From: Azolla caroliniana | Taxonomy: Eukaryota > Plantae > Polypodiophyta | Reading direction: 5' to 3' | NCBI GenBank assembly: GCA_043228905.1 | Contig: JBHGNT010000018.1 | Span: 7,502,001-7,566,000 of the forward strand | Length of the DNA stretch: 64,000 nucleotides | Shown here: in pieces, positions 25,307-63,297 of the stretch | Numbering within the stretch: the first letter of the stretch is position 1 | How the letters are laid out: each line of letters begins with the position of its first letter | Notes under the pieces: model-generated | What the model saw: only the letters and a program-made list of their open reading frames with translations | Databases searched by the model: none | Told to the model about the DNA's origin: nothing | Made by a program: the position numbers and the translations under genes

Positions 25307-26361
25307 GGGAAGTAATGTGGCCTTGAAATGGAAGGAGGTTTTTGATAATATGCTAGGGAACTGTTGTGGGCAAATTACCTCACAAAAAGGGACAAGAGTA
25401 AAATACTAAGGGGATTTAAGTATGGAGGCCTGAAGTTCTAAGTATTATAGGAAAGCTAAGTCTACATAAATGTCTCTCTCTTTATATATACATGCATACA
25501 TGTGTGTGTGTGGAGAACCCATACCCAGTTAAGGTAAGAACAGAGGGCCATGGAAATCAACATTATTTCTGACAAAGGAAATCTTCTGGGTATGGGAAAA
25601 AGGGAATGGGCAAATTCAAAACCTCATTCCAATGTTCATGGGCACTTCATTCTTTGTCAGAAGCAAAAAAATAAAAATAAAAATAAAAATGAAAGGCAGC
25701 AGGTTTGACGAAGCAATGCTTTTCAAAGAGCATGTGTGTGAAAAACCCCAAAAAAAAAAGACCAAAAGAAAGAAAAAAAACAGAGTTACCTTTTGACCTA
25801 TCATCATGTGTTGTTTGGTCCTTTAGAGACATGGGCAAATTGGGTCTTATTCTTCTCTTCTCCTTATTCGACAGGAAATTCTGCTTTCCTCTTCATAATG
25901 GTGTGAAAATCCATGGAAAGAAGGAAAAGGTGAGTTTAAAAAAAAAAGGAAAGAAGAAAGGAAGTATACAGACCACCAAATCAAAAGGAGAATTTGTTTT
26001 CCCATGACGAATGAGATTGATGGGTAAAAGCAGAGGAGGGGAGGCATATACATAATCATTTTTATAGAAACCCAATGTCTGCTCTTTGGGGCATTCAGGA
26101 TTTTCATTAACGTGTGATCGATCTGTTTTCTGTTCAGAGGAGATGAACTAAACACACAGAAAAAATGGGGATATGGAGGGTATAAATTATATGATGTGGT
26201 GTGTGCTTTTTTGAAAAGGAAACATTGGGGATTCCTAAATTCCTATAAAACGATGGATCCTTCCTTGGTCGAGAGATATATAAAACAGGGGAAAACAGGG
26301 GACCCATTTTCCCATTGGAAATTTGTGACTAAAAGGAAAGGGGAGAAAATTTTAATCTGAT

Positions 26362-26820
26362 ATATGTATGTATGTATGTATGTATGTATCCATGAATGTT
26401 TGTATGTATGTATGTATGTATGTATGTATGTATGTATGTATGTATGTATGTATGTATGTATGTATGTATGTATGTATGTATGTTTGTATGCATGCATGTA
26501 TGTATGTATGAATGCATGCATGCATGTATGTATGTATGTATGTTTGTATGTATGTATGTATGTATGTATGTATGTATGTATGTATGTATATATGTATATA
26601 TGTATGTTTGTATGCATGCATGTATGTTTGTATGCATGCATGTATGTATGTATGAATGCATGCATGCATGTATGTATGTATGTATGTATGTATGTATGTA
26701 TGTATGTATGTATGTATGTATGTATGCATGCATGTATATATGTATGTATGGATGTATGGATGGATGGATGTATGCATGGATGAATGCATGTATGCATGCA
26801 TGTATGTCTGTATGTATGTT
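26362..26820. repeat. Long (TATG)n/(CATG) microsatellite upstream of TPP
   Basis: ~460 bp of tatg with catg/gatg variants; further (TG)/(TATG) tracts at ~27145-27250. Confidence 0.97.
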
Positions 26821-27690
26821 TTTTTATTTATTTAAATGAAGATATCCTGTCATTAGTGTAACCATCTTTACAAGATTTTAAATTCTATGTGATCGGTGGG
26901 GGAAACAACCATTTCGGAGGTTGAAATTGCCAATAAGGAGTACCATAATTGGCTGTCATGAATGGAGTAGCTTTCCATATAGTGATAAACTCATGCCGTT
27001 GAGCAATTTTAGCATCAGTACCTCCAACAATACCATCCCATTGTCCCTTCAAAAGTATGAACTATGTCTAACTAAATATTTGAAACCAATTCAGCCGGTG
27101 GTGTTTTAAGTTGATGGAAAATGAGAGAACACCTAACCTTCCAAATGTATGTATGTATGTTGTGTGTGTGTATGTGTGTGTGTATGTGTGTGTGTATGTG
27201 TGTGTCTCTGTATGTATGTATGTATGTATGTATGTATGTATAATGTGTGTGCTTTTTTGTCTTGCATTTTGTAGTGTGAGAAAGGGGGCATTTTATAATT
27301 TGTGTGCTTGCTTTGTTGGACTCTCTTTTAATCCCTTCCTTTTACTAGGGAAATTGGTGAGTTCAAAAGGTGGGGGTAAATTTGTACATATTGCTCTACG
27401 GTCGGTCGCCTCTTCTGCGGGAAACAAACCGTCACTCGTGTACGACTCTGAATGAGAGAGAAACTCTTTCTGCTTCCGTGAATATGATGGGAAATTTGAT
27501 TGGAAAATTAATGGGAAATCAAAGCAAAGGAAACAAAAACAAAATAACACAATGAGACACGAGAGAACACACACACACACACACTTACGGTCTTACCCAT
27601 TACATGACGGACCTTGGAATTGATGGGAATCTTTATTCCATACAAAGTATGTACGCCATTGGCCTCTTCTTTGTGTGTGTGCATGTGACC

Positions 27691-30600: not shown

Positions 30601-31736
30601 TTTTTGTGGAAGAACAAATTTGTGATGTTTTAGTTCAAAGCAAACAATGAACCAACTTTTCTATGTGGAAGATTCAAATTTGTAAGGTTTTGTATATCAA
30701 CAACTTTGACGCCATTGTTCAACAATGGAGGAGACCGAGGATCAACAATGGTGAAGTTATTAGCCTCATGTGCACATTTCCCAAGTCATGGGACATCTTC
30801 AACACAACTCTTTGTACAAGTGCATCAAAAAGTAGAGATGCATAACACAAAAATGTAAATCACTTCTCAATGAGGAGATCTCTTAAAGGTGTATGGTTGA
30901 TGCACAAGATGGTGAAGTGTACAATATGCAAGATCCATTCAAGTAAGGCCCTAAATGGATTTTCAGAAAAAGTGAGGTAGTTGCCCACCTCCTTCTCAAA
31001 TGATGATATAGGAAATCAACATCCTGTTAAAGAGGACAAAGAGGATAGAAAATCATAAATTCACCTTCCTCCATGGGGTCCTCAAGGATGTAGTGTATAT
31101 GGAGCAAGCCATCAACTTTGTACAATGAAATAAGGAGGAAATAGTTTGAAGACTAAAGAAGAGCCTTACAACTTGAATCATGCGCCCTAATAATGGTATT
31201 TGAAGTTTGAATCATTTATATCGTCAAAATGTTTCTACCACAATAATGAGGACTCTTGCCTATACATTGAATAGAGCATGATGACATTTTAATCCTCCTC
31301 CAAAACTTTGGCATGAAGGCATTGTAATGGTTATCGGATGGGATGTAACATTATAGCAATTAATGTAAAATGTATGATTAGACACCTATACAACAATAGA
31401 GAGGTTGAATATAAAATTACAAGGGCATTATAAGTATTAAGGTATCTAATCATTGGTTTAAGAGAGATTTAAACATGTACTTGGCATGGGCAACAAGCTT
31501 TTGTAATCATATGCTTAGACAACATCCTTTCTAGCTTATGTGTTGGAGGAGATAAATAGAAATTAGATTCAAATTCTCCGATTTTGAGGTTGATACTTTG
31601 TCTATATCTCTTCTCTTAGAAAGGACTCATATACAAGATATGTTTATGTAAAAGAATAGTGTGTGCGGAAACGTATGTGAAGCATAGAGTACACAGTTTA
31701 GAGAACGACAATTTGGTAAAACACAGAAAACGCAGA

Positions 31737-31815
<79 letters not shown>

Positions 31816-34112
31816 CAACTCAGTTCTATTTCAAAATAATGATACTCTGTACATACTTTGTGCTCAGTGAGCACCTTTTATACAAGCCCTTACTATCGGG
31901 CTGACACAAGTACTGATAGTACTTGACTGCTCATAAATGAGCCTACTACACTAACTCCCAAAATTATTCCTTACGAGGAATACTATATTCACGACCTTTC
32001 GGTTTACGCACCGATACGGCCACGTTATGCGTACTGTTTTACGCACCCAGTCTACGCACTGGGTTATGCACCCAATGTTGAGCTTGTCACTCAACACTCC
32101 CCCTCAAGCTCAACTTGAAGTTCCACATGATCCTCCGGATCTTCACTCCAACTTCTCCTGGCTTCATGCCTTGCTCGTGCTCCTCGACCTGTTCGATTTC
32201 GCGCTCCTCGACCCTTCTGGTCGGCTAGTCTGCTCATTTGTCCCTTCTCAGCTTCCTTGTTGTTGCGGTGTTGGCGCCTCTTCCACTGCCCTTTCCTCCG
32301 CTTGGACCTCAATTGATTCGTAATATATCCAAATCGAACATTTCGATTGAATCGGTCTCTTCCGATTCAATTCCACTTACATCCGAATTAGCTGTCTCCA
32401 ATTCTTCTTCAGTCTTTAGGCCTTTGACAATGTCAGACCACGTCTTGGTCTTGGCCTTACCTCCCCCTGATTCGGATGTCCTCGACTCTTCCCTACGATT
32501 ACGACCCTTGCTCTCTTCTTCGGTTTCTTCCGCCGGCCCGAAATTGAGTTCTACATCCGACTCCGCATCACGGTCACTTCCGCCGCGATGATCACCTTCG
32601 CTCCTTTCACTCTCTTGTTCTTGTCTCCCCCTCAAGTTCGGCATGTTGAGGTGATGCAAACCCAACTCACCCGAGAAATGTCGCAACTTGTCGAGACCAA
32701 GAGGTTTGGTGAAGATGTCGGCAACCTGCCAATCAGTCAGAACATGCACCAATTCGACTTCACCTGAAAGGACCCACTCGCGGACAAAATGGTAATGCAC
32801 CTCAATGTGCTTGGTCTGGGTGTGGAACACGGGGTTTTTCGCAAGGTGGATATTGTTGAGGTTGTTGCAATAGATCGTCTTTGGATCAGACACCTCTACA
32901 TGTAGATCCCGTAACAACCGTTTCAGCCAAATGACTTCGCACGTAGCGACAGTCGCCCCTCGATATTCGGCCTCCATGCTCGATAGTGCTACTGTCAGCT
33001 ACTTCTTACTGCTCCACGCGATCGCCGCACTTCCTAATGAGAAGGTGTATCCAGATGTGGATCTATGATCAATGGCGTTTCTGGTCCAATCGGCATCTAT
33101 GTAGCCAACCAACTATTCGGCTACGCCTGCCCGATACAACAACACCATGTCTTTCATGCCGCTGACATATCTCAATATCCTTTGCGTGCACTGAAAGTGT
33201 TCGGCCATAGGCTACGACATAAACTGACTGATTAAGCTGATCGGGAAACTAAGATCCGGTCGAGTAATCGTCAAATAGATGAGGCTTCCGATGATTTGTC
33301 GAAACCGTGTCGGGTCGCACGCCTTTCCCAAATCTCGGCGAAGCTTTGCGTTTTTGTCCAAAGGGGTTGTGATGGGCTTACAATTTTCCATCTCGAACTT
33401 GAAGAGCATATTCAGCGTGTAATGACGCTGGCTGATCAATATGCCTTGGGGGTATAGATCACTTCGATCCCGATGAAGTAGTGAAGGTCTCCAAGATCCT
33501 TCATTTCAAATGATGCCGCAAGTTGAGACTTTACATGGCAGATTTCGTTCATGTCGGCATCGGCAATGATTAAATCATCAACATATAACAAAAGGCTTAG
33601 CGGGCTATGTTGATCTTGCCGAACAAATAATGAAGAGTCAGACTTCCATGTCAAAAACCCCATCTTATGCAACCGTTGCGTAATCTTTGCGTTCCAAGCT
33701 CGCGGGGCTTGCTTGAGTCCGTAAAGTGACTTCTTTAGTCGGCAAACTGCCGAAGTGTTCTGTTCGGATAGAAATCCGGGGGGATGTACCATGTATACAT
33801 GTTCCTCAAGATCGCCTTGCAGGAACGCGTTCTTTACATCCATTTGATGTAAATGCCACCCCTTCGCCGCTGCTACGACTAGCAGGAGACACACAGTAGT
33901 CATCTTCGCAACCGGTGCGAAGGTCTCATCGTAATCCACGCCGTGCTTCTGCGCATAACCTTTCGCAACTAATTGGGCCTTATATCGGTTGACAGAGCTG
34001 TCCATGTTGTATTTGACCTTGTACACCCACCTACATCCAATCGGCTTCACACCCTTTGGTGCGTCAACCAGGTCCCACGTCTCATTCTGCGTTAAAACGC
34101 GCGCATCTCTTT

Positions 34113-37100
34113 TGTGAAAGATTATGTGCGGAAGCAATAGAAAACGAACACAGAGAAAATACACAGGTTTAATGGAGAGCTTGAATATACACAATACGCG
34201 GGAGAGACAGAGAGAGAACACATAGAAGCTAAATTCAAAAAATACTAATTCTCTGTACATACACCGTGCTTAGTGAGCACCTTTATACAAGCCCTGACAA
34301 TCGGGCTAACAATACTTGACTGCTCATAAATGAGCCTCAACACTTACTCCCAAAACTATTCCTTACAAGGAATATCTCTCTAACGGCCTTTCGGTTTACG
34401 CACCGATACGGCCTCTCGTTACGCACCGGTTTGCGTATCCGTTTTACGCACCGGTCTGGCCTAACTGATCGGTCCCAACCGATCCGGTCCTTGGCTTGCT
34501 AAGCCGATCCGGCCGACGTTGAGCTTGTCTCTCAACACTCCCCCTCAAGCTCAACTTGAGGCTCTTCGGGATCTTCGGGATCTTCGCTCCGGTTCCTCTT
34601 GGCTCCACGCCTCGCTCGCGCTCCTCGGCCTATTCGATTCCGCGCGCTTTGACCCTTCAGGTCGGCTTGTCTGCTCCCACAACCCTTCACAACTCCCTTG
34701 CTATCGCGGTGTTGACGCTTCTCCTACTGCCTTCTTTTCCGCTTGGCCCTCGGTTGATTCAGTGTATCCGAATCAAACATCTGAACCGACTCGGCTACCT
34801 CTGATCCGTTTTCGCTCTCGTCCAAGTTGGTTGTCTCCAACTCGTCTTCGGTCTTCTCGCCCTTGATGACGTCATCTCCCCCATGCTTGGTTGGATTCAG
34901 CTCTTTCTTTCGGTTGCTCCCCTTATGTTCGCTTTTGGACTCTACCGCGGATCCATCCTCGGCTTCTTTAGCCGATCCGAATTCGTCATCCGACTCGGCG
35001 TCGTGGTCTTCTCTGCTCCTTTCCTGCTTCCTTCCATAGTCATTCGGGACGTCTCTCCCCCTCAAGTTTGGCACGTTGAGGTGACGCAATCCAAGCGCAC
35101 CCGAGAATTGCCGCAACTTGTCTAGACCAAGGGGCTTGGTGAAGATGTCGGCAATTTGCTGATCCGTCGGAACATACTGAAGTTTGACCTCACCAGAAAG
35201 GACATGCTCACGGACAAAATGGTAGTGCACCTCAATGTGCTTGGTCCGTGTGTGGAAAACGGGGTTCTTTGCAAGCTGGATGCTGCTGAGGTTGTTGCAG
35301 TAGATCGTCGTCGGATCGGACACCTCCTCGTGCAGGTCCTTAAGTAGCCGCTTCAACCATATGGCTTCGCATGTCGCGACAACCGCTCCTCTATACTCAG
35401 CTTCGGTGCTCGACAATGCAACTGTCAGTTGCTTCTTACTGCTCCACGCTATCGCGGCACTCCCAAGAGAGAATGCGTATCCGGACGTGGATCGGTGGCG
35501 TCGCAAGCCCAATTAGCATCGATGTAGCTGACCAACTACGAGGTTGTACCGGTCCGATATAGTAGTCCCCGGTCCTTAGTGCCGATTACGTACCGCAGTA
35601 CGCATTGCGCACACTGAAGGTGCTCCTCGATAGGCCGCACCATAAACTAACTGATCACCCCGACTGGGTAGCTGAGATCTGGTCGGGTGATGGTCAAGTA
35701 TATAAGGCTGCCGACTATCTGTCGGAACCTCGTCGGGTCGCATACCTTTCTGGACTCGGGGCGAAGCTTGACGGTTCTATCCAGAGGAGTCGAGACGGAC
35801 TTATAGTCTGCCATCCCGAATTTGAAGAGCATATTTAGCGCGTAATGGCGTTGGCTGATCAATATGCCTTCGGGGGTACAGATCACTTCGATACCGAGGA
35901 AGTAATGAAGATCCCCCAGATCCTTCATGTCGAACGATGCCGCAAGCTGGAGCTTCACGCGGTCGATTTCACCTAGGTCGGCGCCGGTGATGACCAAGTC
36001 ATCAACATATAGTAGAATACTGACTGGACCGAGTCGACCTTTCTGGATGAACAGGGAAGAGTCCAATTTTGACGTTGCAAAGCCCATCCGACGTAGTTGC
36101 TGCATGATCTTCGCGTTCCAGGCACGCAGGGCTTGCTTTAGTCCGTAAAGGGACTTCTTCAATCGGCACACTACCGACGTGTTCGTTCCGGAGTGAAATC
36201 CGGGGGGCTGTACCATTCCTTATGGCTCGTCATGTGATTTGACGCGCCGGAGTCGACGTACCACACCTCGTCCGATTTCGGGGTGGTCTGCTTCATTGAG
36301 TTTGCTTCGTGTCTCGTCACGAAGACTGACCCTTTTCCGGTTTCTCTGGATCCTTCGGGGTAGTGCGATCGTTGCTGATTTCCTTTGTCGGTCTATTCGG
36401 AACCTGATCCGGACTCGGTTCTCTCCGAATCAGCGCGTTTTTTCCAGCACTCGCTCTCCCTGTGGCCTTTCTTGCCATAGTACCAGCATTCCGCGGAGGA
36501 TTTCCCTTGCCGGTTCTCGTCGCCTCGACTCCCCTTGTTTCCGGAGGGTCCGGAATTGCTATCGGCATCACTTCGGTGCCTTCTTCCTTGATCCTATCGG
36601 CCGCCTCCATTGCGTACCGACTCGCCTTGTCCACCACGACCATGGGGCCTATCTCCCTCCGTGTACATCATCTTGCTGTCGGCATGCGTGATTGTTGATG
36701 CACCCGCATGGTTCTCCTTTATAAGGAGCATCGACTATAAGTCGAAAAACGACGATGTATTCTCCCGTGTACACACAACAGTTCGGAACGCTCCGAACTT
36801 TGACGCCAAACCCCCGAGACAGACTTGGACCATCTCGCTTTCCTCGATGGTCACATTGATGGAAGCTAAGGAGTCGCATATGTCCTTGATCTTCGAGGTA
36901 TAGTCAGCCACCGAAAAATCGCGTTGTCGTAGGTTGCTCAACTCTTGTTGGAGCTGATGCTTCCTGGCTGTGGTGCTCGTGGCGAAGATCTTCTTGAGAT
37001 TTTCCACGCACCCTTCGGCGTTTTTGCATCCCGAACGTAGCTTAATAACTGTTCACCCACACAAGACGCGAAACAGTACAACACTCTGCTCGCCGATTGT

Positions 37101-37793
37101 TCCCACGTTGGGAAATCTTTGTGTGTCGATTCGGGTGTTGTGTCATTTGCTTCGTCGACATAGCTCTAGTAACCGTGCCCGAGCAGGTACTGGTGCATCT
37201 TGTAGGACCAAGACGCGTAATTGTTTCTGTTGAGCTTCTCTATTGGAAGCGAGCTAGCCATTCCTCTATCCATCGGTTTTGCCTATTCTTCTTGGTTAGT
37301 TTTTCTTTCAAGCTATGTCGGCTGTAGAGGTTCTCAACCCTCGCGCTCTGATACCATATGAAAGATTATGTGCGGAAGCAATAGAAAACGAACACAGAGA
37401 AAATACGCAGGTTTAATGGAGAGCTTGAATATACACAATACGCGGGAGAGACAGAGAGAGAACACACAGAAGCTAAATTCAAAAAATACTAATTCTCTGT
37501 ACATACATCGTGCTCAGTGAGCACCTTTATACAAGCCCTGACAATTGGGCTGACACAAGTATTGACAATACTTGACTGCTCATAAATGAGCCTCGACACT
37601 TACTCCCAAAACTATTCCTTACAAGGAATATCTCTCTAACGACCTTTCGGTTTACGCACTGATACAGCCTCTCGTTACGCACCGGTTTGCGTATCCGTTT
37701 TACGCACCGGTCCGGCCTAACTGATCGGTCCCAACCGATCTGGTCCTTGGCTTGCTTAGCTGATCCGGCTGACGTTGAGCTTGTCTCTCAACA
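34113..37793 (-). mobile_element. Ty1/Copia element B, a relative of A, internally deleted, inserted at the start of the RT of A
   Basis: LTRs 34113-34537 and 37357-37793; TSD TCTTT/TCTTC; iMet PBS; PPT; gag is joined directly to mid-RT (MVQPPGF) at ~36216. Confidence 0.92.
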
Positions 37794-38138
37794 TCTTCCT
37801 CCATTGCGGCATGCCAGTTTGCGTCTTTCGCCGTTTCTGCGTAGCTCTCTGGCTCACGCACTTCCGTCACTCGCGTCATGTACGCGTAATGATGCGCCAT
37901 GTACTCATTATACCCGTATCTCTTTACGGGGTTCATCAAGCGGGTAGATCGACGTAATTTGAGATTACCTGATTTCACAACCTTTTCGGCCGATTTTGAC
38001 CTCTTCTGCGGAGGTTCCTTTATGATCGGCTCGATGTCAGGTTCGCTCCAAATTGACTCGGCGCTGTCGAAATCGTACTCCGGCATTTTCTTCTTGCCCT
38101 TCTCCTTGCGCATAAACCGTCTCCTCGGTTCTTTACGC

Positions 38139-40296
38139 CGTCGTGCCTTTCGGCGCCAGATCGTTTGCGTGAGTCGGGTGGGAACTGCTGGGGTTTTGGA
38201 CTAGGAAGAGGAGAGTTTTAAGGCTAATAAGAATATAAATATGTTGTAAGAAAGAGTTATAGTAAACTTGTGAATCCCACGAGTGTATTGTATTAGATTA
38301 ATCAATATGAATATAAGAATAATTTGGGTTGAAAGAGAATGATATAGAATCCTCGTGAATCCCACAAGTATAGTTTATTAATTGGTGTTTTTTAGAAACA
38401 TATCTAGTTTCAAAAATATTTTTCATCCCCCCCCCCATTACATTGTGCTCCCCATCCTTATGTAGTGATGAGGGAGTCTTAGCAATCCATGCTTTTTCTT
38501 CTCTAACTATAGACTCCATGCTTTTCCTATAGATAGACTATATGCTTTATCTAAAGTGATCATGCTTTTTGTAACTTGTGTGTTTTTTTATCAACTATAG
38601 CGTTCATGCACGCTAGATGTGCATGCGTAGCTTTTTCTTTTAGCATGCGTTTTCTTTTAACTAAAGTTTATCCCAGCGGAACTAACCTTTCTATGTGGAA
38701 CATCTATTTTTAACACTAATGAAATGCTAGTGCAATGGTAAGACATTACATTATTAACTTGAAGGTGCAAGGTTCGAATCTTGCCCTATGCATGTAATGC
38801 CTATTTGTATATTTTCTTCTTTTTTTCTTCATATTTATTAAGTCGGTTATTTTATATTATTTTCACGTAGTGTACGAAATACTCTACGACACTCGCCCCC
38901 TCCGAACCCGCACATCCTCTGGTATGTGCCGAAGTTGTCAGTGATTGTTAGTCTCGTCTGTCCGTTCTCCGCATGGTTGGTTTCGTCGCCGGCCCCGTTC
39001 GGTGTCCGGTTTTTGGTTGCCGACTCCCCCCGGTTTCCAGTTCTATTCGGTTGCAGGCTCTATCCGGTCTCCAATTACCGACCCTCGTAATTCTTCTTTA
39101 CTTGTAGGACCCTCCGTTTCTCTTGCTATGTCGGCTTTGTCTCTCCATTTTGAACACATTCATTCTTTCCACTTGAACCATTGTTGCCATCCGATCCACC
39201 ATAGTCTTCGTTCGCTTTTTGCATTGCTATGGCCCGCTTGGTCCTTGTCATCCGTGGTAGTGTCTTTGCTTGGCCTCTTCCTTGTCTTTATCAATATTGA
39301 TTTCTTTTCGGATCTTCGGTTGAGTTGGATTAGCTTCTTTCCGATTCGGTATCGTCCGATCATCTTTCGGTTAGATCGGCTTCCATTCCGATTTGTATTT
39401 GGCTGATTCGGACTCGGTTGATCGGTTTTTACCGATTCAGCCCCCTTCCGGATCTGTGTCGACCGATCGGTTTCCGTCTAGATTTTCTTTCTTTTCTTTG
39501 TTTTCACTGGTCTCGACCGATTTGACTTCCAGAACTTCTTTCCGGATCGGTCTCGTTCGATCGACTTCCGGTTGGAATGATTTCCGTCCGTGTCGAACTC
39601 TTGGATTTTGTACGGATCCACTTCCGCTTGCTTTAGCTTTCTTTTAGACTGGAATTTCGGACGGATCATCTTCCATCCGAACCGGCTTCCAACTTTACCT
39701 TCCTTGCCGCCATCTCCCGTCTCTCCTGTCTCACGTTGGTTCTCGGATGCAACCGTCGAAGTCTCTAGGATTAGTGCGCATGAACCCTCGGTATTATCAT
39801 CCTCTATCATTTCAACCATAGCCACCTTCTCGGCTATCTCTCCGTCGTATGAATCAGCTTCGACCTTTGTTTTCTCTCCACCACCTTCCATCTTGTTAGG
39901 AAATAGGTCCCTTCGGATGGGAAGGGAGAAGAACAGTGCTGATGAGCAAACTCGGCCGAGGCCGAAACTGGATGACGAGTACCCGGCTATGGAGAGCCGG
40001 ATGGTGCAGACCCGGTGAGAACCGGATGAGGAGAACCCGGCTACGGAGAGCCAGATGGTGCAGACCCGGTGAGAACCGGATGACGAGTACCCGGCTACGG
40101 AGAGACAGATGGTGCAGACCCGGTGAGAACCGGATGAAGAGACATATTTGTAAATATGTTTCTGAGAGTCCATCGTGGCTATATTTGTAAATAGCCTAAA
40201 AGTCATATTAGTATAAATATGACTTAGGGCAAACTTATGATGTATAGTAGTTATCATTCTTGTTGGTGCAAGAAGAGAGAGCGTGTAACTGTGTAC

Positions 40297-40332
<36 letters not shown>

Positions 40333-42413
40333 GGTTTCGTATCTCTGTTGTAACCGCCGACTGTGGCGAAGATAGCAAGCTCGAGGTCGTGGCCTCGATG
40401 CTTTTCTATTGTACATTCTGATATAGTGATAGTTTGCGGTTTGCGGGCTGCCGTGGTTTTTCCCGAGTTTGGGTTTTCCACATAAAACATCCTGTGTACT
40501 TTTCTCTCCTTTGTGTCGTGCATTCATTCCCGTTTTTTGTTTATGATTCTAAGCTTGGTTGTGGCCGAGCATTGCGCATAGGGAGCGTGTAGTTCCCGTC
40601 ACATCTCTTCGGTCTCACGTTGCCTTTCGAACGCAACCGCCGGAGTCTCTGGAATCAGTGGTGGGGAAGTCTCAATATGGCCATCCGCCATTGATTCGTC
40701 CATAGCCACCTTCGATTCGATGTCATCTTTCATGGCGACCTCCTCAATCAAGTCCTCCATGCTCTCTTTCACTGCATCAATTATGCGTACCCCTTTTTCA
40801 CCCGATGTTTTGGACACTTGTATTCCGAAATCTTCTTCGACACTTGGGTTATCGGCCTTATCCTTCACCGTCGTTCTTTCGCAAGAGAAGAGGGTAGCTT
40901 ATTTTACACCCTCTTCCGTCACACCATCATGTTGTATTTCGGCCTTCATATTGGCTCCATCGATTGTCTTCAATCGACCATCCTTCATCGGCCATGTCGT
41001 TGACAAGATTCTCATCTTCCTCTCATCATGTCTCCGGCATACCCTTTGGACTTCAGCCCAATCTTCGGTAAGACCATTCGCACCGTCATCGTCTTCGAGT
41101 TCGATCCCGATGTCCATCCTTTCTTTTCGATCGATCGATTTTACGAACATTAGGACTTTATCCTCTCCCACCAATCTTTGTTCCCGCTTCGAGAGTCGAG
41201 CAAAACAATGCTCGAACTCTAGGAATACTTGTGTTGCACTCCGGTAGATCTTCTCCGATGCCACCCATTCGTCGAATTCTCGCCGATCTTGTCCCTTTGA
41301 TCTCTTGAAATCATATGCCTCTCGTAAAGCTTCTTCAAAGGACCCCCATGTTGGATTTTATTGCCGTATCTTGTAGATTCTTTCTTGTAACTCATCCGTG
41401 GCTACTCGATTGAAGGATGTCACTTGCAATCCTTCCAGTATCCCACATCGCATCATCTCGGCCTTGTATTTGCATAGATAGCGTGTCACATCCTTTCTGT
41501 CGAATTCCCCGTTTCTTTGCACAAGCCGCGCTACTGCCGATTTCATCTCCGACATTGTGCGTTGCTCTTCTTGCATCCGCTTAATCATCATCATCATCAT
41601 ATTCATCGCTTCTTGTCAATTCTCTATCTCCTTACCACCCCTCTTCATGTCAGGTTCACCACATGTGTCGTGCCTTTCGGCGCCAGATCGTTTGTGTGAG
41701 TCGGGTGGGAACCGCTGGGGTTTTGGACTAGGAAGAGGAGAGTTTTAAGGCTAATAAGAATATAAATATGTTGTAAGAAAGAGTTATAGCAAACTCGTGA
41801 ATCCCACGAGTGTATTGTATTAGATTAATCAATATGAATATAAGAATAATTTGGGTTGAAAGAGAATGATATAGAATCCTCGTGAATCCCACGAGTATAG
41901 TTTATTAATTGGTGTTTTTTAGAAACATATCTAGTTTCCAAATATTTTTCACCCCCCTTACATTGTGCTCCCCATCCTTAATGTAGTGATGAGGGAGTCT
42001 TAGTAATCCATGCCTTTTCTTCTCTAACTATAGACTCCATGCTTTTCCTATAGATAGACTATATGCTTTATCTAAAGTGATCATGCTTTTTGTAACTTGT
42101 GCGTTTTTTTATCAACTATAACGTTCATGCACGCTAGATGTGCATGCGTAGCTTTTTCTTTTAGCATGCGTTTTCTTTTAACTAAAGTTTATCCTAGCTG
42201 AACTAACCTTTCTATGTGGAACATCTACTTTTTAACACTAATGAAATACTAATGCAATGGTAAGACATTACATTATTAACATGGAGGTGCAAGGTTCGAA
42301 TCTTGCCCTATGCATGTAATGCTTATTTGTATATTTTCTTCTTTTTTTCTTCATATTGATTCAATCGGTTATTTTTTATTATTTTCACGTAGTGTACAAA
42401 ATACACTACGACA
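38139..42413 (-). mobile_element. Non-autonomous gag-only LTR element C (tRNA-Trp PBS)
   Basis: LTRs 38139-38891 and 41666-42413; 4-bp TSD ACGC; PBS TGGTGAACCTGACATGAA (~41644-41661); PPT GAGGGGGCGAG; decayed gag (GEFDRKDVTRYL...); no pol domains seen. Confidence 0.88.
39894..40601 (+). mobile_element. Solo LTR (Copia family related to the element at 61389) inserted in element C
   Basis: TG...CA ends; perfect TSD CATCT; removing it restores the host frame RETEEMEGG; internal 54-bp tandem repeat x3 (~39970-40140); similar to 61389-61887. Confidence 0.88.
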
Positions 42414-42789
42414 ACGCGGGGACATCACGGACGAGTCTCCACTACTCGTCGTCTCTTCAATAGGTTGGCCATTTCGGCCCAACCCCTCATTTGGCCCACT
42501 TAGCCAAAATTAGATTGGACTCTCTCTCAGAGCTCCGATTTCCCCATCATGTGGAGGCATTTCAGCCTCGCTAACTTCGTCCTCAGAATTTGGAATGGAG
42601 TCATGAGGAGTTGGAGGTGAAGGCAAGTACCATGAAGCGGACTCGTCGAACACGACATCTCGGCTTATGCGTACTTCCTTCTTTCGGGGGTTGTAACACT
42701 TATACCCCTTTTGCTCGTCTGAATAGCCGACGAAGATACATTTCTCGGCTTTGGCATGCAGCTTCCTCCTTCGGCACGTGCACATACGC

Positions 42790-45700
42790 TGTCGCGTTGT
42801 TACGCGCGTACGTGTAGAAGGGGCGGGACCACCGGGGTCTCGGACTAGGGAGTGGAAGAGAAAGAATAGGACATGATATGGAGGCTTAGCTCAAGAGGAG
42901 AAGAGGAAAGAATAAGACCACAACATAGAAGGAGAGATCGGCGGAGGCAAGATGTTCAACAAGTTATATTAAAACAACGAATGGTTACAGCAATGGTGGC
43001 CACATGGGCCACACCAAACGACTATGAGAAAACCCTAACCGAAGATGAATAAGGAACCCCTAAACAAAACCCTAGCCCTAAAACGGTAAGAACTCTAGGC
43101 TAAGTGGTATACCTCTCATACGCAAAATAGGCAACCCTTTCATAAGTGACCCCTCCCTTCCTTTTATAGCCCAAGGAGGGAGGGACCTTACAATGTGGGA
43201 CAAAAATTTCCCCTCTCTTTCAATACACCATATCCTAGTATACATGTGCACATGTTGCACACCACCGACTTGCCCCTTCCACCCCGGTTTCCGCCTATGG
43301 ACGAAAATCTTCACGACATCCACCCCCACCAAACCGCACATCCACCGGTATGTGCCAAGAAAGGAAAAGGGTGAGAGATTTCGGCCACGGTGATCAACCG
43401 GGTCTTTCGCCTTACCGGCACCCAACCTTCTTGCCGGTCCCTTGCCGGCGCCGATCCGTCTTGCCAACTCCTTACAGGCCCCGACCCGCCGGCTCCATCC
43501 GATCCACCACGTCTAGCGCACACACCTTCTTCTTCGACTGGCCATCCCGAACACCGTTGCCGATCCTGTCTCCCTTCCTTCGCTCACCGCACATGTCCTC
43601 CGGTTAGACCCCTGATTACTTCGATTGCTCGCCGGGTGCCGCTCCTCGCGTATCGCGTGTGTTCCACCTCCGGCTCGACCTTCTCCTCGGCCCGAACACC
43701 TCGTACTGACTCCCTTCGTTCTGCGCTCGGCTTCCGTAGGCACTTTCCGTGCGTCGTTGTCATTCATCGAATGCGCGCTCGTTCTTCGGTCCTTACGTGA
43801 CCCTGTTATGCGCTCCTTGCTTCTCCCTTGCTCGCCGTGCTCTCTCGCTGTAGAGCGTACCGTCATCCCGACCACCATGTCAGTGCCCTTCGCGACTCCC
43901 GTTATCGCTTCATCCCGACTCTCGTCCTCTTGGCCCGCTTGGCCTCGCATGTGTTCCGGGACGCCGCGCTTCCTCTTCTCGGCGTGTAGCCCGTCGCTCT
44001 CCTCACACCTCCTTCGGTTCTCAAGACACTGCCTTCTATGCTCGCCGATCATCCGCCGATACGGGCACCTCACCGCTCCGTCTCTCGCCGCGTGCATTCC
44101 TCGCAAAGGCTCGTATGTCCTCCGGGTGAGTTCCTGATCTCTCCGATCGCCCTCCGGATTCCGCTCTTTTCGTGCCGCGTATGTTCCTCCATTGGTTTTA
44201 TCGTCTCCGCATGCCGAACACCTCGGTGTGTCGACTCTTCCCGCTCCGCGCTTGCCTTCCGTAGGCTCTTCCCGTGCGCCGATGTTGTCCCCCGAATATG
44301 CACTCATTCTTCGGTCCTTACGTGACCCCGTTACGTGCTCCTCGATTCTCCCTTCCTCTCCGTGCTCTCTCGTAGTAGAGCGTATTGTCATCCCGACCTC
44401 CGTGTCGGTGTCCCTCGAGGCTCTCGTTACCGCCTCGCCTCGACTTGCGCTTTCTTGGCCCGCCTGGCCCGCTTGGCCGCACACATCCTTTGGGATGCCC
44501 CGTTTGCTCCTCACGGTACGTGACCCTCCGTTCTCCACGCATCCCCTCCGTTTTCCCAGACACAATCCTTTGTTCATGCTGATCACGCTTGTCTCGTTCC
44601 GTCGATCTTGGCGTCTCGTCGCACTGTCCGTCGTCCCGCGCTTGCCTCTCGAAGGCTTCCTCCGACCGTCATCGTCGGTCACTCGTTGCGGCTCCTCCGA
44701 ATGCACGCCTGCTTCTTGGCCCATTTTACGCCGTAGTGCATGCTCCATTTTACGCCGTAGTGCATACTTCGTATTACGCGCCTCATCCACCGTAAACCCG
44801 ACCTCCGCGTTGGTCCCTTCGTCCTTCGTTGCCGTAGCCCATTCCAACTCGGGCTTGCCGTCTTGGCCCCGCTCGTCCATTATTTCATACCGGATATCTA
44901 CACCGGTCTCCACCCCTGCATCAGCCTCTAACTCCTCGCCGCCACCCACAGTCTCTTCGGTCTTATGTTGATCCGCAACCGCCGAAGTCTCAAGAATAGG
45001 TGCAGAGGGTTCCCCTTGCTCTCGGTCTTCCGCCAAGCCGTAATCACTGTGCTCGGTTAGCCTCCTTCTTGCGCTCACCGGCTCCCACCACGTGTTGTGG
45101 CTCGTACACCTCGGCCTCCAATCATGCTGACATAGCCTTCGCCCGGATCGGTCTCGACCGATCGAGTTCCGGTTTGGTCGGCTCCCTTTCCTAACCGTAA
45201 CCAGCCGGTACATGTTTGTCCGCACAAATCCGGCCTTGCTAGCTCTTCTTCGGTTCGGGCCCGGTTGACCGGACCCCACTCCAATCTTCTTCCGCCTTCT
45301 CTTCCGGTCGTGTCGGATTACCGACCGGTTCATCTTCCGGTCGGGTCGGTTCCCGACTCTCTCCTCGCCGTTCCTGACCTCTCTGTCGGTCCTCTTGTAT
45401 ATGCCCGTTCCGGGCCTCTCGTCCTCATCTTCGCATGTGTTCGCTCCGGGCCATGCCTCCTCACGGCCACTGTCCTTCTCTTCGGTCTCATGTTGGCATT
45501 TGAGCACAACCGCCGCAGTCTCCGACCCCGGTGTCGAGAGGTCTTGCCTCCGTCCGCTATGACCTTCCTCGTCGTCGTTTCGATCGTCCGCTTTGCCGCC
45601 GCCACCTTCCGTCTCTCCGGTCTCACGTGGGCTCTCGGGGCCGACCGCCGAAGTCTCTAGAATAGGTGTGGGAAAAGTCCCGGTACCGTTACTCGCCGAT

Positions 45701-47462
45701 GCCATGTTCGTAGCCACCTTCGTTCGGACGCCGTGGTCCGTGGCTATCTCTTCCTCGTTCTCTTCGTCGCCGTGGTAGCTTGCCTTGCCGCCACCACTGC
45801 TCGTCGCTCTAGGTCTCATGCCGGCACTCGGGCCGACCGCCGGAACCTCTAGGGCCAGTGTGTGTAAGGTCGCGGCACCGCCACTTGTTATGTCCGTAGC
45901 CACCTCTATCCGGACGTCGTTGTCCGTGGCTACCCCGTCTCCAATCGCGGAAGCCTCGATTACGCTTGCCGCCTCCTCTTCCTCGATCCTCTTGCCGTCG
46001 TCTTGGTTGCCCGCCTTGCCGCCGCCACCGCCCGTCGCTCTAGGTCTCATGCCGGCTCTCGGGCCGGCCGCCGGAGCCTCCATGACCGGTGTGGGTAAGA
46101 ACTCGGCACTGCCGCTCGTCTCCTCCCCATTCGATGTTTCGGGCCGCCATGTCCCGAATCCGTAGTTATCGGCCTCCATGGCCGTCCCTTCACCGCAAGG
46201 CAAGAGGGTTGCTTGCTCCACACCCTCTCCCATGTCGCCGTCGTACGCTCTTCTGGCCTCTGTATAGGCCCCGTCTTCTACGCTTAGGGAGGCTTCTTCC
46301 TCCGTATCCTCCGATCGCCTCCGGCCCGACTCCATAATAAGCCCTTCTTCGGCTTCAATTTTCCCCTTCACAAGCTCGCATGCCTCCCGTATTAGCGCTT
46401 CTAGGTCGAGCTCCTCCGAACCGTTTTGCGTTGAGCTCTCTTCCGGCGGTAGTGTGTACTCACTCACCGCTCTCTCTTCTTCGCCGCTTGCGGGCCGTGT
46501 TGTGGCCGACCGCCTCGTGTCATGTTGCCGGCACACCCACCGATCGAACTCATGTCGACCTCTTCCTTCCGGTTCCGTGTACCCGTACGCCTCCAATAGG
46601 GCTCCCTCAAAGGACACCCACGACTCATGAGCTTCCCGTAGCTCCTTGACCTCCTTGTGCACCGATACAACCGCCACTCGAGGAAAATACTCTAGCCGCA
46701 TCGCCTCGTCTACGCCCCCTTTCGCCATCTCGGCATTGTATGCTTCTAAGACATTGTCCCCGTTGAACCGGCCGACTCGATCAACAACCTTTTCGACGGC
46801 TTGTTGAGCCGCATCTCGCTTCGCCATCTTCCGTCCGGCTTCTATCACGATCTTTGCCATCATCTCCTCGAAGTCGAAGTCTTCTTCCATCTCCATGCTC
46901 CTTTGCCGCCCTTCACGTCGGGTTCACCAAAGATGTCGCGTTGTTACGCGCGTACGTGTAGAAGGGGCGGGACCACCGGGGTCTCGGACTAGGGAGTGGA
47001 GGAGAAAGAATAGGACATGATATGGAGGCTTAGCTCAAGAGGAGAAGAGGAAAGAATAAGACCACGACATAGAAGGAGAGATCGGCGGAGGCAAGATGTT
47101 CAACAAGTTATATTAAAACAACGAATGGTTACAACAATGGTGGCCACATGGGCCGCACCAAACGACTATGAGAAAACCCTAACCGAAGATGAATAAGGAA
47201 ACCCTAAACGAAACCCTAACCCTAAAACGGTAAGAACTCTAGGCTAAGTGGTATACCTCTCATACGCAAAATAGGCAACCCCTTCATAAGTGACCCCTCC
47301 CTTCCTTTTATAGCCCAAGGAGGGAGGGACCTTACAATGTGGGACAAAAATTTCCCCTCTCTTTCTATACACCATATCCTAGTATACATGTGCACATGTT
47401 GCACACCACCGACTTGCCCCTTCCACCCCGGTTTCCGCCTATGGACGAAAATCTTCACGACA
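42790..47462 (-). mobile_element. Non-autonomous gag-only LTR element D (tRNA-Trp PBS), young
   Basis: 529-bp LTRs 42790-43318 and 46934-47462, about nine substitutions apart by eye; 4-bp TSD ACGC; PBS TGGTGAACCCGACGTGAA 46912-46929; purine-rich PPT at 43319; interrupts the integrase of A at GNIA|YVH. Confidence 0.93.
43513..46896 (-). CDS. 1127-aa Gag-like protein with a long repetitive low-complexity tail
   Basis: Open ORF starting just after the PBS; N-terminus VGRFNGDNV...YNAEM resembles the gag of C; repeated PILETSAV/GGGGKA units and a ~525-bp internal duplication; no PR/RT/INT motifs. Confidence 0.7.
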   Translation of the reverse strand: MEMEEDFDFEEMMAKIVIEAGRKMAKRDAAQQAVEKVVDRVGRFNGDNVLEAYNAEMAKGGVDEAMRLEYFPRVAVVSVHKEVKELREAHESWVSFEGALLEAYGYTEPEGRGRHEFDRWVCRQHDTRRSATTRPASGEEERAVSEYTLPPEESSTQNGSEELDLEALIREACELVKGKIEAEEGLIMESGRRRSEDTEEEASLSVEDGAYTEARRAYDGDMGEGVEQATLLPCGEGTAMEADNYGFGTWRPETSNGEETSGSAEFLPTPVMEAPAAGPRAGMRPRATGGGGGKAGNQDDGKRIEEEEAASVIEASAIGDGVATDNDVRIEVATDITSGGAATLHTLALEVPAVGPSAGMRPRATSSGGGKASYHGDEENEEEIATDHGVRTKVATNMASASNGTGTFPTPILETSAVGPESPRETGETEGGGGKADDRNDDEEGHSGRRQDLSTPGSETAAVVLKCQHETEEKDSGREEAWPGANTCEDEDERPGTGIYKRTDREVRNGEERVGNRPDRKMNRSVIRHDRKRRRKKIGVGSGQPGPNRRRASKAGFVRTNMYRLVTVRKGSRPNRNSIGRDRSGRRLCQHDWRPRCTSHNTWWEPVSARRRLTEHSDYGLAEDREQGEPSAPILETSAVADQHKTEETVGGGEELEADAGVETGVDIRYEIMDERGQDGKPELEWATATKDEGTNAEVGFTVDEARNTKYALRRKMEHALRRKMGQEAGVHSEEPQRVTDDDGRRKPSRGKRGTTDSATRRQDRRNETSVISMNKGLCLGKRRGCVENGGSRTVRSKRGIPKDVCGQAGQAGQESASRGEAVTRASRDTDTEVGMTIRSTTREHGEEGRIEEHVTGSRKDRRMSAYSGDNIGAREEPTEGKRGAGRVDTPRCSACGDDKTNGGTYAARKERNPEGDRRDQELTRRTYEPLRGMHAARDGAVRCPYRRMIGEHRRQCLENRRRCEESDGLHAEKRKRGVPEHMRGQAGQEDESRDEAITGVAKGTDMVVGMTVRSTAREHGEQGRSKERITGSRKDRRTSAHSMNDNDARKVPTEAERRTKGVSTRCSGRGEGRAGGGTHAIREERHPASNRSNQGSNRRTCAVSEGRETGSATVFGMASRRRRCVR

Positions 47463-49789
47463 ACGCGATGTTGCCAAAAATCCTCAAGTGTGCCAAGTTC
47501 GGCTTCTTTCTGAAATATAGCTCATGTGGCGACACTCCTCCATTAGCAGAAGTCTGATTCTGCAGGTAGACAACCGTCCTCACGGCGTCGGCCCAATAGA
47601 ATTTCGGCATATGCTTCACTTCAAGCATTGCCCTGGCCGCGTCTTGAATCGTCTGATTCTTCCTTTCGGCTACGCCGTTCTGCTTCGGCGTATATCTACA
47701 CGAGAATTCACGTTGAATTCCCTCCTTCTGTAGATAACTCGTGAACTGGTCGGAGAAGTACTCCTTCCCGCCATGGGACCGTAGGTATTTGATCTTACGC
47801 CCTGTTTCCCTTTCCGCAAGGCTCTTCACATTCAGGAAACATGCGTAGACTTTGCTCTTCTTCGCGATCGTGCATACCCACGTGTGCCGAGTGAAGTCGT
47901 CAATGAAGGTTACAAAGTAACACCTTCCATCGAGACTCACGTTCTGTGCCGAACCCCACACATCCGTATGGATCAAATCCAGTGGATTTCGACTATGATT
48001 ATGCTCGTTGGGGAATGGAAGTCGGTGTTGTTTTCCCATTTGGCAGGCTTCGCAGACTTGGCCATTCTAGCCTCGAAATTTCGGCAAGTTGAACACAATG
48101 TTCTTCGTCCGCATTTCACGAAGCCACGGGAAGTTAATATGGCCGAAGCGCTTATGCCACAGGTCGATGTCCAACTCGACCTTCTGCCCTTTCGCAAACA
48201 TAACGATGCCTACATGGTTGGTTTCGAGGATAACAATCCTCCCTTCATGGCGTCCTTGTGCGATTACTTTGTCTTCCTCTTCTATGAAGCACCCTAGATG
48301 CGTGAATCGAACCCGCATTCCCTGGTCGACGATCTGACCGACCGACACCAGGTTCTTCGTTATTATCGAGACATGCAACACGTTCATGAGTTTCCCTTTC
48401 TGCCCGACGTGGCTGAGGGGAACTTCGCCGACATGTTCAATGGTATGCGGAGTGTCGTCTCCCGTTTCGATCACTCCTTGCGATTCCGATTTCTCCAAGT
48501 ACGAGAACCACTCCTCGTGACTCGACATATGATTTGACACTCGGGAATCAACATACCACACCTCGCTCGATTTCGAGGTGTTCACGGCCATAGAATTGGT
48601 TGTATGCTTCATTATGAAGGTTGGGCCTGATTTGTTTTCGGCTCGTTCAGAGCCTTCTGCGTAGTGTGATCTCTGACGCCTCTCTGCATCTCTTCGGCTC
48701 GATCCGGCTTTGTCTGAATCGACTCTCTTTTTACAGCACTCACTCTCAATGTGGCCTTTCTTGCCACAATATCAGCATTCCGATTCGGCCTTCTCTTGCC
48801 GGCTTCCGGTGCCGCCATGACTCCCCTTGCTTGTGGAGGGTTAGGAACTGCTGTCGGCATTTCGATTATGCCGCTTGTTCTGCTCTTGTCGGCCACCTCC
48901 ATTGCGCACCGATCCGCCTCGTCCACCACGACCACGGGGCCTATCTTCCTCCGTGTACATCATCTTGCTGTCAGCGTGCGTACTCGTCGACGCACCCGCG
49001 TGGTTTTCCTCTACGAGCAACATCGATTGAAGCTTGAAAGACAAAGGCGTATTCTCCCTCGTTCAAACCGCCATTCGGAAAGCTCTGAACCTGGACGCTA
49101 GCCCACCAAGGCACACTTGCACCATCTCGTCCTCCTCAATGTTCACATTGACGGAGGCGAGAGAGTCATAGATTTCCTTGATTCAGGCTGTGTAATCGGC
49201 CACAGACAGAGCTTTCTGCCGGACATTGCTGAGCTCCTACCTGAGTTGTAGCTTCCTGGCCGTTGTGCTTACAGCAAAAATCTTTTTGATATTCGCCCAC
49301 GCGTCCTTTGGCATCTTACCATCCCGAATATAGCTCAATAGTTGGTCCTCTCACATTGGTTGCAAAGCAGTAGAGAACTCTGCTTGCCGCTTGTTCCCAA
49401 GCTGAAAAATCTCTGTCTCTGTTTGTCGAATCGGGTGCTACATCATTAGCTCCTTCGACATAACTCCAGTAACCGTGACCAAGCAGGTACTGGTGCATCT
49501 TGTACGACCAAGATGCGTAGTTTCTCCTGTCGAGCTTCTCAGTCGGTAGAGAGCTCTTCCCATTCCTCTGTCCATGTTGTTGTCTTATCTTTTCCGAAAA
49601 CCAAGAATAACAACTCAACTATGTCTTTGTCGCAAGCTTTTCTGTCGGCTACAGAGGACTTCAACCCTCGCGCTCTGATACCATGTAAAAGAATAGTGTG
49701 TGTGGAAGCGTATGCGAAACACCGAGTACACAGCTTAGAGAATGACAATTTGGTAAAACACAGAAAACGCAGAGATGGAGATGGAGAGG

Positions 49790-49825
<36 letters not shown>

Positions 49826-50292
49826 AGAAAACTCAGTTCTATTTCAAAATAATGATACTCTGTACATACTTCGTGCTCAGTGAGCACCTTTTATACAAGC
49901 CCTGACTATCGGGTTGACACAAGTACTGACAGTACTTGACTTTCATAAATGAGCCTACTACACTAACTCCCAAAATTATTCCTTACGAGGAATACCATAC
50001 TAACGGCCTTTCGGTTTATGCACCGATATGGCCACGTTATGCGTATTGTTTTATGCACCCAGTCTACGCATTGGGTTACGCACCGTGTTACGCACCCAAT
50101 GTTGAGCTTGTCACTCAACAATTTACTTAGTCCCATAGGTCAATATTGATACAAATTCTATTCTATTCTCTCAAGATGAGAGAGAGAGAGAAACTAATTT
50201 TTATTCGAGAAAACCTAAAAGACTAATACAAGCATGGTCGATGGTAAACTAGTTTCGTTTCAATGGAGCTCATCAATGCACATGACCATGTG

Positions 50293-63270: not shown

Positions 63271-63297
63271 AGATCACCCATGAGACGGAAGGCACTA

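What the first reader, a model, noticed from the sequence alone, without database searches (positions are those of the whole stretch)
38134..47467. Two tRNA-Trp-primed gag-only elements hit the same hexamer TACGCG with 4-bp ACGC TSDs
Seen: removing C restores ctt-TACGCG-ggg and removing D restores caca-TACGCG-atg (GNIAYVH of the host integrase). Both duplicate exactly ACGC, have the same orientation, and lay only ~380 bp apart in the original Copia. Their LTR bodies differ (~750 vs 529 bp) but they share TGTCGYG...YACGACA termini and a Trp PBS set 4 nt from the LTR. Every other TSD in the window is 5 bp. Known: most plant LTR elements make 5-bp TSDs with weak sequence preference; 4-bp sequence-biased targeting is known from insect errantiviruses such as ZAM and Idefix. 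Inference: a lineage whose integrase prefers a CpG-containing alternating purine/pyrimidine site, which would steer insertions into CpG-rich transposons. Only two sites are available here.
Basis: partly seen in the sequence, partly recalled or inferred. Interest (0 to 1): 0.8.

Follow-up and report, generated by a model that had tools for sequence, protein, structure and literature searches.

The report
CpG-targeting Phygy-like gag-only retrotransposons
Two defective plant jumping genes both landed on a CG dinucleotide, and their relatives do the same almost everywhere, which likely makes them members of a moss-type lineage (Phygy) whose liking for such sites is already published, while the shared six-letter site is likely a coincidence.

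Summary
C (38139-42413) and D (42790-47462) are gag-only LTR elements with exact 4-bp ACGC duplications inside one Copia element. One error: C's outer left end reads CGTCG, not TGTCG.

The target bias is real, but the hexamer is not the rule. In 69 flank junctions of related families, 53 have CG at the centre of the 4-mer (63 with CpG decay; background 3.9%). The consensus is (c)ACGT(g), and only 4 of 69 fit TACGCG. In three sequencing runs the majority flank at D's terminus ends in ACGT.

Autonomous relatives with the same primer site and termini are about 8.8 kb and lack aRH and chromodomain. REXdb lists Phygy as 4-bp TSD (100%, NCGN), tRNA-Trp primer (81%), 7.7-10.0 kb. These are therefore likely TR-GAG-type derivatives of Phygy. 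I could not run the REXdb tree.

New details: the refined motif, a single gag-only clade, and an acidic or shortened target-contact loop in the integrase. Steering into other transposons is not shown. An earlier scan note names Phygy elsewhere in this genome (e1-10618240).

The parts
38135..38138 (.). Left copy of C's 4-bp target site duplication, ACGC
38139..38891 (-). Element C 3' LTR (753 bp); its outer end reads CGTCGTG on the + strand instead of TGTCGTG
38892..38915 (-). C purine-rich tract; the G run ends 4 nt before the LTR
39894..40601 (.). Unrelated solo LTR inserted in C's gag tail, exact 5-bp TSD CATCT
40617..41648 (-). C gag (capsid-like) region, with in-frame stops; no zinc knuckle, protease or pol match in C
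41644..41661 (-). C primer binding site (2 mismatches to D's), then a 4-nt spacer (41662-41665)
   Evidence: Trp identity recalled
41666..42413 (-). Element C 5' LTR (748 bp)
42414..42417 (.). Right copy of C's TSD, ACGC
42418..42785 (-). Host Copia sequence (downstream part of the integrase region) between the two insertions
42786..42789 (.). Left copy of D's TSD, ACGC
42790..43318 (-). Element D 3' LTR (529 bp)
43319..43345 (-). D purine-rich tract; the G run ends 4 nt before the LTR
43513..46923 (-). D open frame of 1136 aa: gag N-terminal part, an in-frame loss of about 73 aa relative to P0005, then a long low-complexity tail; no Pfam match
46912..46929 (-). D primer binding site (18 nt, CCA-ending complement), then a 4-nt spacer (46930-46933)
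   Evidence: Trp identity recalled
46934..47462 (-). Element D 5' LTR (529 bp)
47463..47466 (.). Right copy of D's TSD, ACGC
47455..48066 (-). Host Copia integrase core (Pfam rve), interrupted by D at GNIA|YVH
31647..50120 (-). Host Copia element that carries C, D and a second Copia (34113-37793); 5-bp TSD with one mismatch

Best explanation
C and D are non-autonomous gag-only LTR retrotransposons, likely of the Phygy lineage of Ty3/gypsy, that were likely copied and inserted by the enzymes of autonomous relatives whose integrase likely cuts four bases apart around a central CG. Shown: their structure, the 4-bp duplications, and a CG centre in 53 of 69 junctions of related families with consensus (c)ACGT(g). 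Also shown: autonomous relatives with the same primer site and termini, and a single gag-only clade nested among autonomous gags. Inferred: the RNA is primed by tRNA-Trp and packaged with a helper's Pol. The helper's integrase accepts the shared TGTCG...CGACA ends and bends the target at the central pyrimidine-purine step, as foamy virus integrase does. It adds base-specific selection strong enough to make CG nearly obligatory and to favour A and T at the edges. The two hits on TACGCG are likely independent events of different age that matched by chance in a CpG-rich host.
For: Window anatomy. Left junctions: 43 of 54 NCGN, 49 with CpG decay, background 3.9%. Right junctions: 10 of 15, 14 with decay. 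CG sits at -3/-2 on one end and +2/+3 on the other, which fits a 4-bp stagger. L054 has CCGT on both sides of an LTR. The loose-end majority at D's terminus ends in ACGT in X1 (46 contigs), X2 (39) and X5 (48), agreement about 0.4. 17 junctions carry the same primer site (one degenerate), spacer 3-5 nt in the 16 measurable. L010 and L048 are autonomous (gag-protease 730 aa; RT-RH-INT about 1175 aa) with no PF13456 (aRH) or chromodomain hit; L048 is about 8.8 kb. L033 joins a C-type LTR (80% over 697 bp) to a pol 69% identical to L048's. REXdb Phygy: 4 bp 100% (NCGN), tRNA-Trp 81%, 7656-9968 bp. The gag-only clade has support 100/99. LTR divergences differ, K2P 0.034 vs 0.017. A central YR step in 4-bp integrations is described in PMC4422553 (passages).
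Against: No Phygy reference sequence could be read (REXdb FASTA too large), so the clade placement that defines Phygy is untested. The junction set comes from related families (LTRs 76-84% identical to C and D), mostly from a few similar assemblies and perhaps another species. It was selected for an intact TGTCGYG terminus. Four short-read contigs with a flank at both ends of one LTR have non-matching 4-mers (L042, L043, L057, L59 = L059); I read these as chimeras across collapsed LTRs, but that was not proven. 6 of 69 junctions have neither CG nor a one-step decay product. Hexamer-compatible half-sites are 4 of 53 CG sites against about 0.9 expected (p=0.013), so a mild CGCG sub-preference may exist. 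X10 listed no loose-end row at the terminus among the rows shown.
Confidence: 0.85

Rival explanations
1. The integrase serving C and D recognises the hexamer TACGCG (an alternating purine/pyrimidine site).
For: Both window sites are TACGCG, and they are two of only three such + strand sites among about 350 CpGs of the host element. When the 4-mer starts with G, the base before is a pyrimidine in 11 of 11 cases (C 7, T 4; p=7e-4, post hoc). 4 of 53 CG half-sites fit the hexamer, against about 0.9 expected.
Against: TACGC is 0 of 54 left junctions; ACGT is 19 of 54; T before an A-starting 4-mer is 7 of 37. The majority flank in three runs laid on D's own terminus is ACGT preceded by C, C and A.
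Confidence: 0.05
2. The elements belong to TatI, the other REXdb clade with 4-bp TSD and a tRNA-Trp primer.
For: TatI: 4 bp (100%), tRNA-Trp (75%), 8950-9421 bp, n=4.
Against: TatI carries an aRH domain between protease and RT in 100% of cases, and PF13456 detects aRH in 2926 of 2941 at E<1e-10. None of 4 ORFs of L010 and L048 hits it at E up to 1. The NCGN preference is reported for Phygy only.
Confidence: 0.03
3. A sister clade of Phygy, not yet named, shares the primer, the 4-bp stagger and the CG preference, and is spread through non-seed plants.
For: REXdb defines Phygy as a species-specific clade of Physcomitrella patens. The named relatives of the helper pol are from the liverwort Riccia sorocarpa at 51-68% identity; no Physcomitrella-named hit was among the 120 listed of 209.
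Against: All four testable non-sequence features match Phygy. Phygy has been annotated in a liverwort (PMC12885004, passages).
Confidence: 0.2
4. The two insertions mark a local hot spot in the host Copia (chromatin or tethering), not sequence choice.
For: They lie 376 bp apart in one host; Phygy nested in other elements is reported in P. patens (PMC6911290, passages).
Against: All 54 left flanks are different sequences. One that matches this window's Copia RT region (L049) lies at another position. The CG bias holds at unrelated loci.
Confidence: 0.07

Closest known systems
Phygy clade, non-chromovirus Ty3/gypsy (Neumann et al. 2019, PMC6317226; passages and two supplementary files read)
   Same: 4-bp TSD with NCGN motif, tRNA-Trp-type primer site, no aRH, no chromodomain, coding region filling the internal part, autonomous size (about 8.8 kb) within 7656-9968 bp.
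   Different: C and D are non-autonomous gag-only forms of 4.3 and 4.7 kb. The motif resolves here to (c)ACGT(g). The host is probably not P. patens (species not determined). Clade placement is untested.
TR-GAG / semi-autonomous LTR retrotransposons (as described in PMC13570524, passages)
   Same: LTRs, primer site and purine tract with a gag ORF and no enzymes; mobilised in trans (inferred).
   Different: These derive from a Phygy-like gag, carry a long low-complexity tail on gag, and form one supported clade of several families. The passages read name TR-GAGs in Coffea, Arabidopsis and Triticeae.
TatI (REXdb)
   Same: 4-bp TSD, tRNA-Trp primer, similar size.
   Different: TatI has aRH; the helpers here do not. 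No NCGN bias is reported for TatI.
Drosophila ZAM-subgroup errantiviruses (PMC5408687, passages)
   Same: Sequence-biased, palindromic CG-containing target (CGCG).
   Different: Those have AGT/AnT termini and two or three ORFs; here the termini are TG...CA, there is no env, and the motif is NCGN with A/T edges. A parallel, not kinship.
Prototype foamy virus intasome (PMC4422553, passages; PDB match)
   Same: 4-bp duplication and a pyrimidine-purine step at the centre; best PDB sequence match of the helper integrase (E=1e-20).
   Different: Retroviral preferences are weak. The position of PFV Ala188, neutral and compact across retroviruses, is acidic here or lost by a one-residue gap.

Membership tests
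Phygy (REXdb) | RT-RH-INT clusters with the P. patens Phygy branch | not testable with these tools
   REXdb FASTA and element table are too large to read; no Physcomitrella-named protein among the 120 pol hits listed
Phygy (REXdb) | 4-bp TSD | tested here: met
   C and D exact; L054 pair CCGT/CCGT; CG position at both ends fits 4 bp. Four contigs with non-matching pairs are read as chimeras.
Phygy (REXdb) | NCGN insertion preference | tested here: met
   53 of 69 junctions, 63 with CpG decay, background 3.9%; majority ACGT in three runs
Phygy (REXdb) | tRNA-Trp primer binding site | tested here: inconclusive
   One conserved CCA-ending 18-mer in C, D and 17 loci, identical to a plant small RNA listed as miR894. 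The Trp assignment is recalled; searches for the tRNA gene found nothing.
Phygy (REXdb) | Non-chromovirus: no chromodomain, no aRH | tested here: met
   No such Pfam hit in 4 of 4 ORFs of L010 and L048
Phygy (REXdb) | Autonomous size 7.7-10.0 kb, coding region filling the internal part | tested here: met
   L048: internal part about 5750 bp plus an LTR of 1534 bp counted twice, about 8.8 kb (only one LTR is whole in the contig); ORFs run from the primer site to near the purine tract
TatI (REXdb) | aRH domain between protease and RT | tested here: not met
Selgy (REXdb) | tRNA-Ala primer, 4.4-6.7 kb autonomous size | tested here: not met
   Helper size about 8.8 kb; the primer site is not Ala by my recall
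TR-GAG (non-autonomous, gag-only) | LTRs, primer site and purine tract with gag but no protease, RT, RH or INT | tested here: met
   Gag matches; no pol or protease match inside C or D
TR-GAG (non-autonomous, gag-only) | Mobilised in trans by an autonomous partner | not testable with these tools
   Inferred from intact TSDs, shared termini and primer site, and autonomous relatives
Errantivirus (ZAM/Idefix) | AGT/AnT termini and env | tested here: not met
   TG...CA termini and no third ORF

The most novel reading that the evidence does not exclude
This lineage has a near-obligate CpG-reading integrase: 63 of 69 junctions carry CG or its decay product, with consensus (c)ACGT(g). It reads the CpG directly, and perhaps its methylation state, through an altered target-contact loop, acidic at the PFV Ala188 position in 102 of 102 matched homologues. 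That would be a DNA-encoded route into methylated repeats that needs no chromodomain, and a whole clade of gag-only parasites has exploited it across several families.
Probability: 0.2. Interest if true: 0.65.

Novelty: new member of a known kind. Interest (0 to 1): 0.27.

Why it matters
The core claim (4-bp, CG-centred targeting with a Trp-type primer in a plant Ty3/gypsy lineage) is in print for Phygy, so this is not a new system. What it adds is modest: a sharper motif, evidence that the trait extends to several families outside the one moss where it was described (host species not determined), and a single clade of gag-only dependants. It also offers intact helper integrase sequences (L010, L048) with which one can test how a plant integrase picks CG and whether methylation matters. 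If methyl-CpG were read, it would explain how a chromodomain-less element reaches heterochromatin.

Tried and rejected
No whole genome is held for this window, so a genome-wide logo of the exact C and D families was not possible. The first read-laying run (28) gave no per-copy flanks; it showed only very deep cover of both LTRs.

Rfam and ARAGORN found nothing meaningful in the elements. Pfam has no match for either gag. Viral contigs hold no relative of the gag-protease. Probes for the priming tRNA gene found nothing in viral or prokaryotic collections. The Atlas look-up for a host gene gave no result, so the host taxon stays open. The Atlas search with the helper pol gave only generic Gypsy clusters.

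tRNA-gene targeting (Ty3-like) is rejected: 2 of 56 loci scanned hold a tRNA gene. Eight of 79 pattern hits were dropped as chance because the bases after the pattern did not continue the LTR. For right ends I left out 9 purine-tract junctions, 2 head-to-head ends (L046), 1 duplicate (L054) and 1 without flank (L076). I kept L020, which the filter had flagged, and added L001.

No structure was predicted: a fold match would only confirm an integrase. Papers: DUF4100 has no hit; PMC7466625, PMC9002660, PMC8282616, PMC13469084 and PMC5426797 (passages) added nothing on target sites. I found no paper refining NCGN to ACGT, or describing gag-only Phygy derivatives, in searches. That library omits most subscription journals, and REXdb's element table (unread) may list each TSD.
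Full report
Observation. The window shows two LTR elements on the minus strand inside a Copia element (31647-50120): C at 38139-42413 and D at 42790-47462. Their LTR pairs are 96.7% and 98.3% identical, K2P 0.034 and 0.017, so they are likely separate events. ACGC flanks both ends of both. The empty sites read TACGCG, and D's lies in frame in RIFGNIAYVH of the host integrase. Each has an 18-nt CCA-ending primer site 4 nt from the 5' LTR and a purine tract whose G run ends 4 nt before the 3' LTR. One detail is off: C's outer left end reads CGTCGTG. The five other insertions I delimited have 5-bp duplications, three exact and two with one mismatch.

What the elements are. Neither gag hits Pfam. 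C's gag finds 15 longer proteins among 943 candidates. One of them, P0008, continues into DUF4100 and a protease; the other 14 show no protease or pol family. D's frame is open for 1136 aa but lacks about 73 aa of gag in frame relative to P0005. No pol or protease match lies inside C or D. In a tree of 22 gag rows, C, D and seven gag-only proteins form one clade (100/99) nested among gags that carry a zinc knuckle and, in all but one, my protease motif (midpoint root, for drawing only). This explains the shared termini and primer site: one non-autonomous lineage, split into families. Gag-only elements are a known category (TR-GAG; PMC13570524, passages).

Target sites elsewhere. No genome is held. 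I scanned metagenome contigs with a motif shared by the two LTR ends and got 79 loci. Eight were dropped as chance; 17 are primer-site junctions (spacer 3-5 nt in the 16 measurable) and 54 are flank junctions, all different. In 43 of 54 the four bases next to the LTR are NCGN, 49 with CpG decay, against 3.9% CG in the flanks (p=2.7e-50). The commonest are ACGT 19, ACGC 5, CCGT 5, ACGG 4, TCGT 4. At the other end 10 of 15 junctions are NCGN, 14 with decay. Pooled, n=69: C 27 at the outer base, then A 37, C 61, G 58, T 43, giving (c)ACGT(g). ACGT is 20 of 53 CG sites against 4.9% expected, and TCGA, the commonest background 4-mer, is 0 of 53. CG at -3/-2 on one end and +2/+3 on the other fits a 4-bp stagger. 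L054 shows a matched pair; four other contigs show unmatched pairs, which I read as chimeras of collapsed LTRs. These loci are relatives (LTRs 76-84% identical), not the window's own copies. As a second source, contigs laid on D's terminus give a majority flank ending in ACGT in X1, X2 and X5 (46, 39, 48 contigs; three studies; agreement about 0.4). X10 showed no such row among those listed.

The hexamer. TACGC is 0 of 54, and 4 of 69 half-sites are compatible with TACGCG. Two sites share a hexamer with about 1% probability under these frequencies. A weak CGCG sub-preference is possible: a pyrimidine precedes all 11 G-starting 4-mers, and 4 hexamer-type half-sites compare with 0.9 expected (post hoc). 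TACGCG is best read as an allowed variant that matches the consensus at four of six positions.

The helper. L010 and L048 carry the same primer site and a TGTCGCG terminus with overlapping gag-protease and RT-RH-INT frames. Pfam finds no aRH and no chromodomain. L048 comes to about 8.8 kb. L033 links a C-type LTR to a pol 69% identical to L048's. Named relatives are Riccia sorocarpa proteins.

Comparison with what is known. Neumann et al. 2019 (PMC6317226; passages; supplementary files) state that Phygy elements prefer NCGN. They list 186 elements with 4-bp TSD (100%), tRNA-Trp primer (81%) and 7656-9968 bp. TatI shares the 4 bp and the primer but has aRH, which PF13456 detects almost always and which is absent here. 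PMC6911290 (passages) confirms 4-bp TSDs as most common in Phygy and reports Phygy nested in other elements. PMC12885004 (passages) annotates Phygy in a liverwort. The reference sequences were too large to read, so the elements work like Phygy on every feature I could test, but membership by phylogeny is open. The Trp label is recalled; D's 18-mer equals a small RNA listed as miR894 and mapped to gypsy repeats (PMC5846777, passages). An earlier scan note also names Phygy as closest for other nested elements in this genome (not checked by me).

Mechanism. Shown: structure, duplications, CG bias, helper anatomy. Inferred: trans-mobilisation, and target bending at the central pyrimidine-purine step as in foamy virus (PMC4422553, passages). 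Flexibility alone should admit TA, CA and TG, so near-obligate CG suggests added base reading. A lead: the helper integrase aligns a Glu with PFV Ala188 (numbering recalled), and this position is Glu in 86 and Asp in 16 of the 102 homologues matched out of 120 examined. Retroviruses have neutral compact residues there. A one-residue gap beside it makes the alignment ambiguous, and in PFV that residue contacts bases outside the duplication, so it may not explain the central CG.

Steering into transposons. In the window, transposon stretches hold 0.039-0.093 CpG per base against 0.012-0.016 in the two non-repeat stretches, so a CG-seeking integrase would meet more targets in repeats. But flank CpG density equals the window mean, and only 24 of 54 flanks match a transposon with my small library (25 hits, one of them a tRNA gene). 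This part is not shown.

Verdict. A real feature, already explained in its core by the published Phygy preference; the hexamer is likely coincidence. New member of a known kind, interest 0.27.

Noticed in passing
window 7212-14562: A Ty3/gypsy element (gag, RT, RH, INT by Pfam) is bounded by 350-bp inverted repeats, 99% identical, with TG...CA ends and an exact 5-bp TSD TGGTG; no direct LTR pair was found. A CCA-ending primer-like site lies near 14085-14096. It looks integrated as one unit with an inverted outer LTR part at its 3' end.
   Followed up: partly
window 38727-38790 and 42249-42312: Both C LTRs hold a tRNA-like piece with A-box and B-box-like words on the strand opposite to gag. ARAGORN and Rfam do not call it. 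It is 93.5% conserved in L033 and L066, whose LTRs are otherwise 78-80% alike, and read depth peaks there. Possibly a captured SINE or a Pol III promoter.
   Followed up: partly
window 39187-39201 and 43495-43509; L008, L011, L061, L062, L069: A 15-nt word reading WWIGW in the gag frame is identical in C and D, and lies 150-270 nt before the purine-tract region in gag-only relatives; it was not found in L010 or L048. It may be a cis signal or a conserved protein tail.
   Followed up: partly
window 38892-38896, 41662-41665, 43319-43322, 46930-46933: Four bases separate the LTR from the primer site and from the G run of the purine tract, in both elements. This could mean cDNA overhangs longer than the usual two bases; the primer-side spacer is 3-5 nt among relatives.
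   Followed up: partly
window 46912-46929: D's primer site complement is identical to an abundant 18-nt CCA-ending small RNA listed as miR894, likely a tRNA 3' fragment that could silence this lineage.
   Followed up: partly
window 63277-63822: A further fragment related to the autonomous gag-protease (DUF4100/protease region, 36-43% to P0008) lies on the minus strand at the window's end, without a recognisable LTR on its left.
   Followed up: no
window 21482-21554; L054 1046-1117: A tRNA-Met gene in the window. L054 holds a 96% similar gene between two LTR copies that are each followed by the same flank, perhaps a tandem unit.
   Followed up: no
L046 around 1085: Two LTR ends meet head to head across ACGT; either an insertion at another element's end or an assembly artefact.
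   Followed up: no
window 26260-26840 and 57501-58692: A (TATG)n-type microsatellite and a three-copy 397-bp tandem repeat.
   Followed up: no
window 2903-4351: A host open frame with a SAM-dependent methyltransferase match (Methyltransf_29).
   Followed up: no
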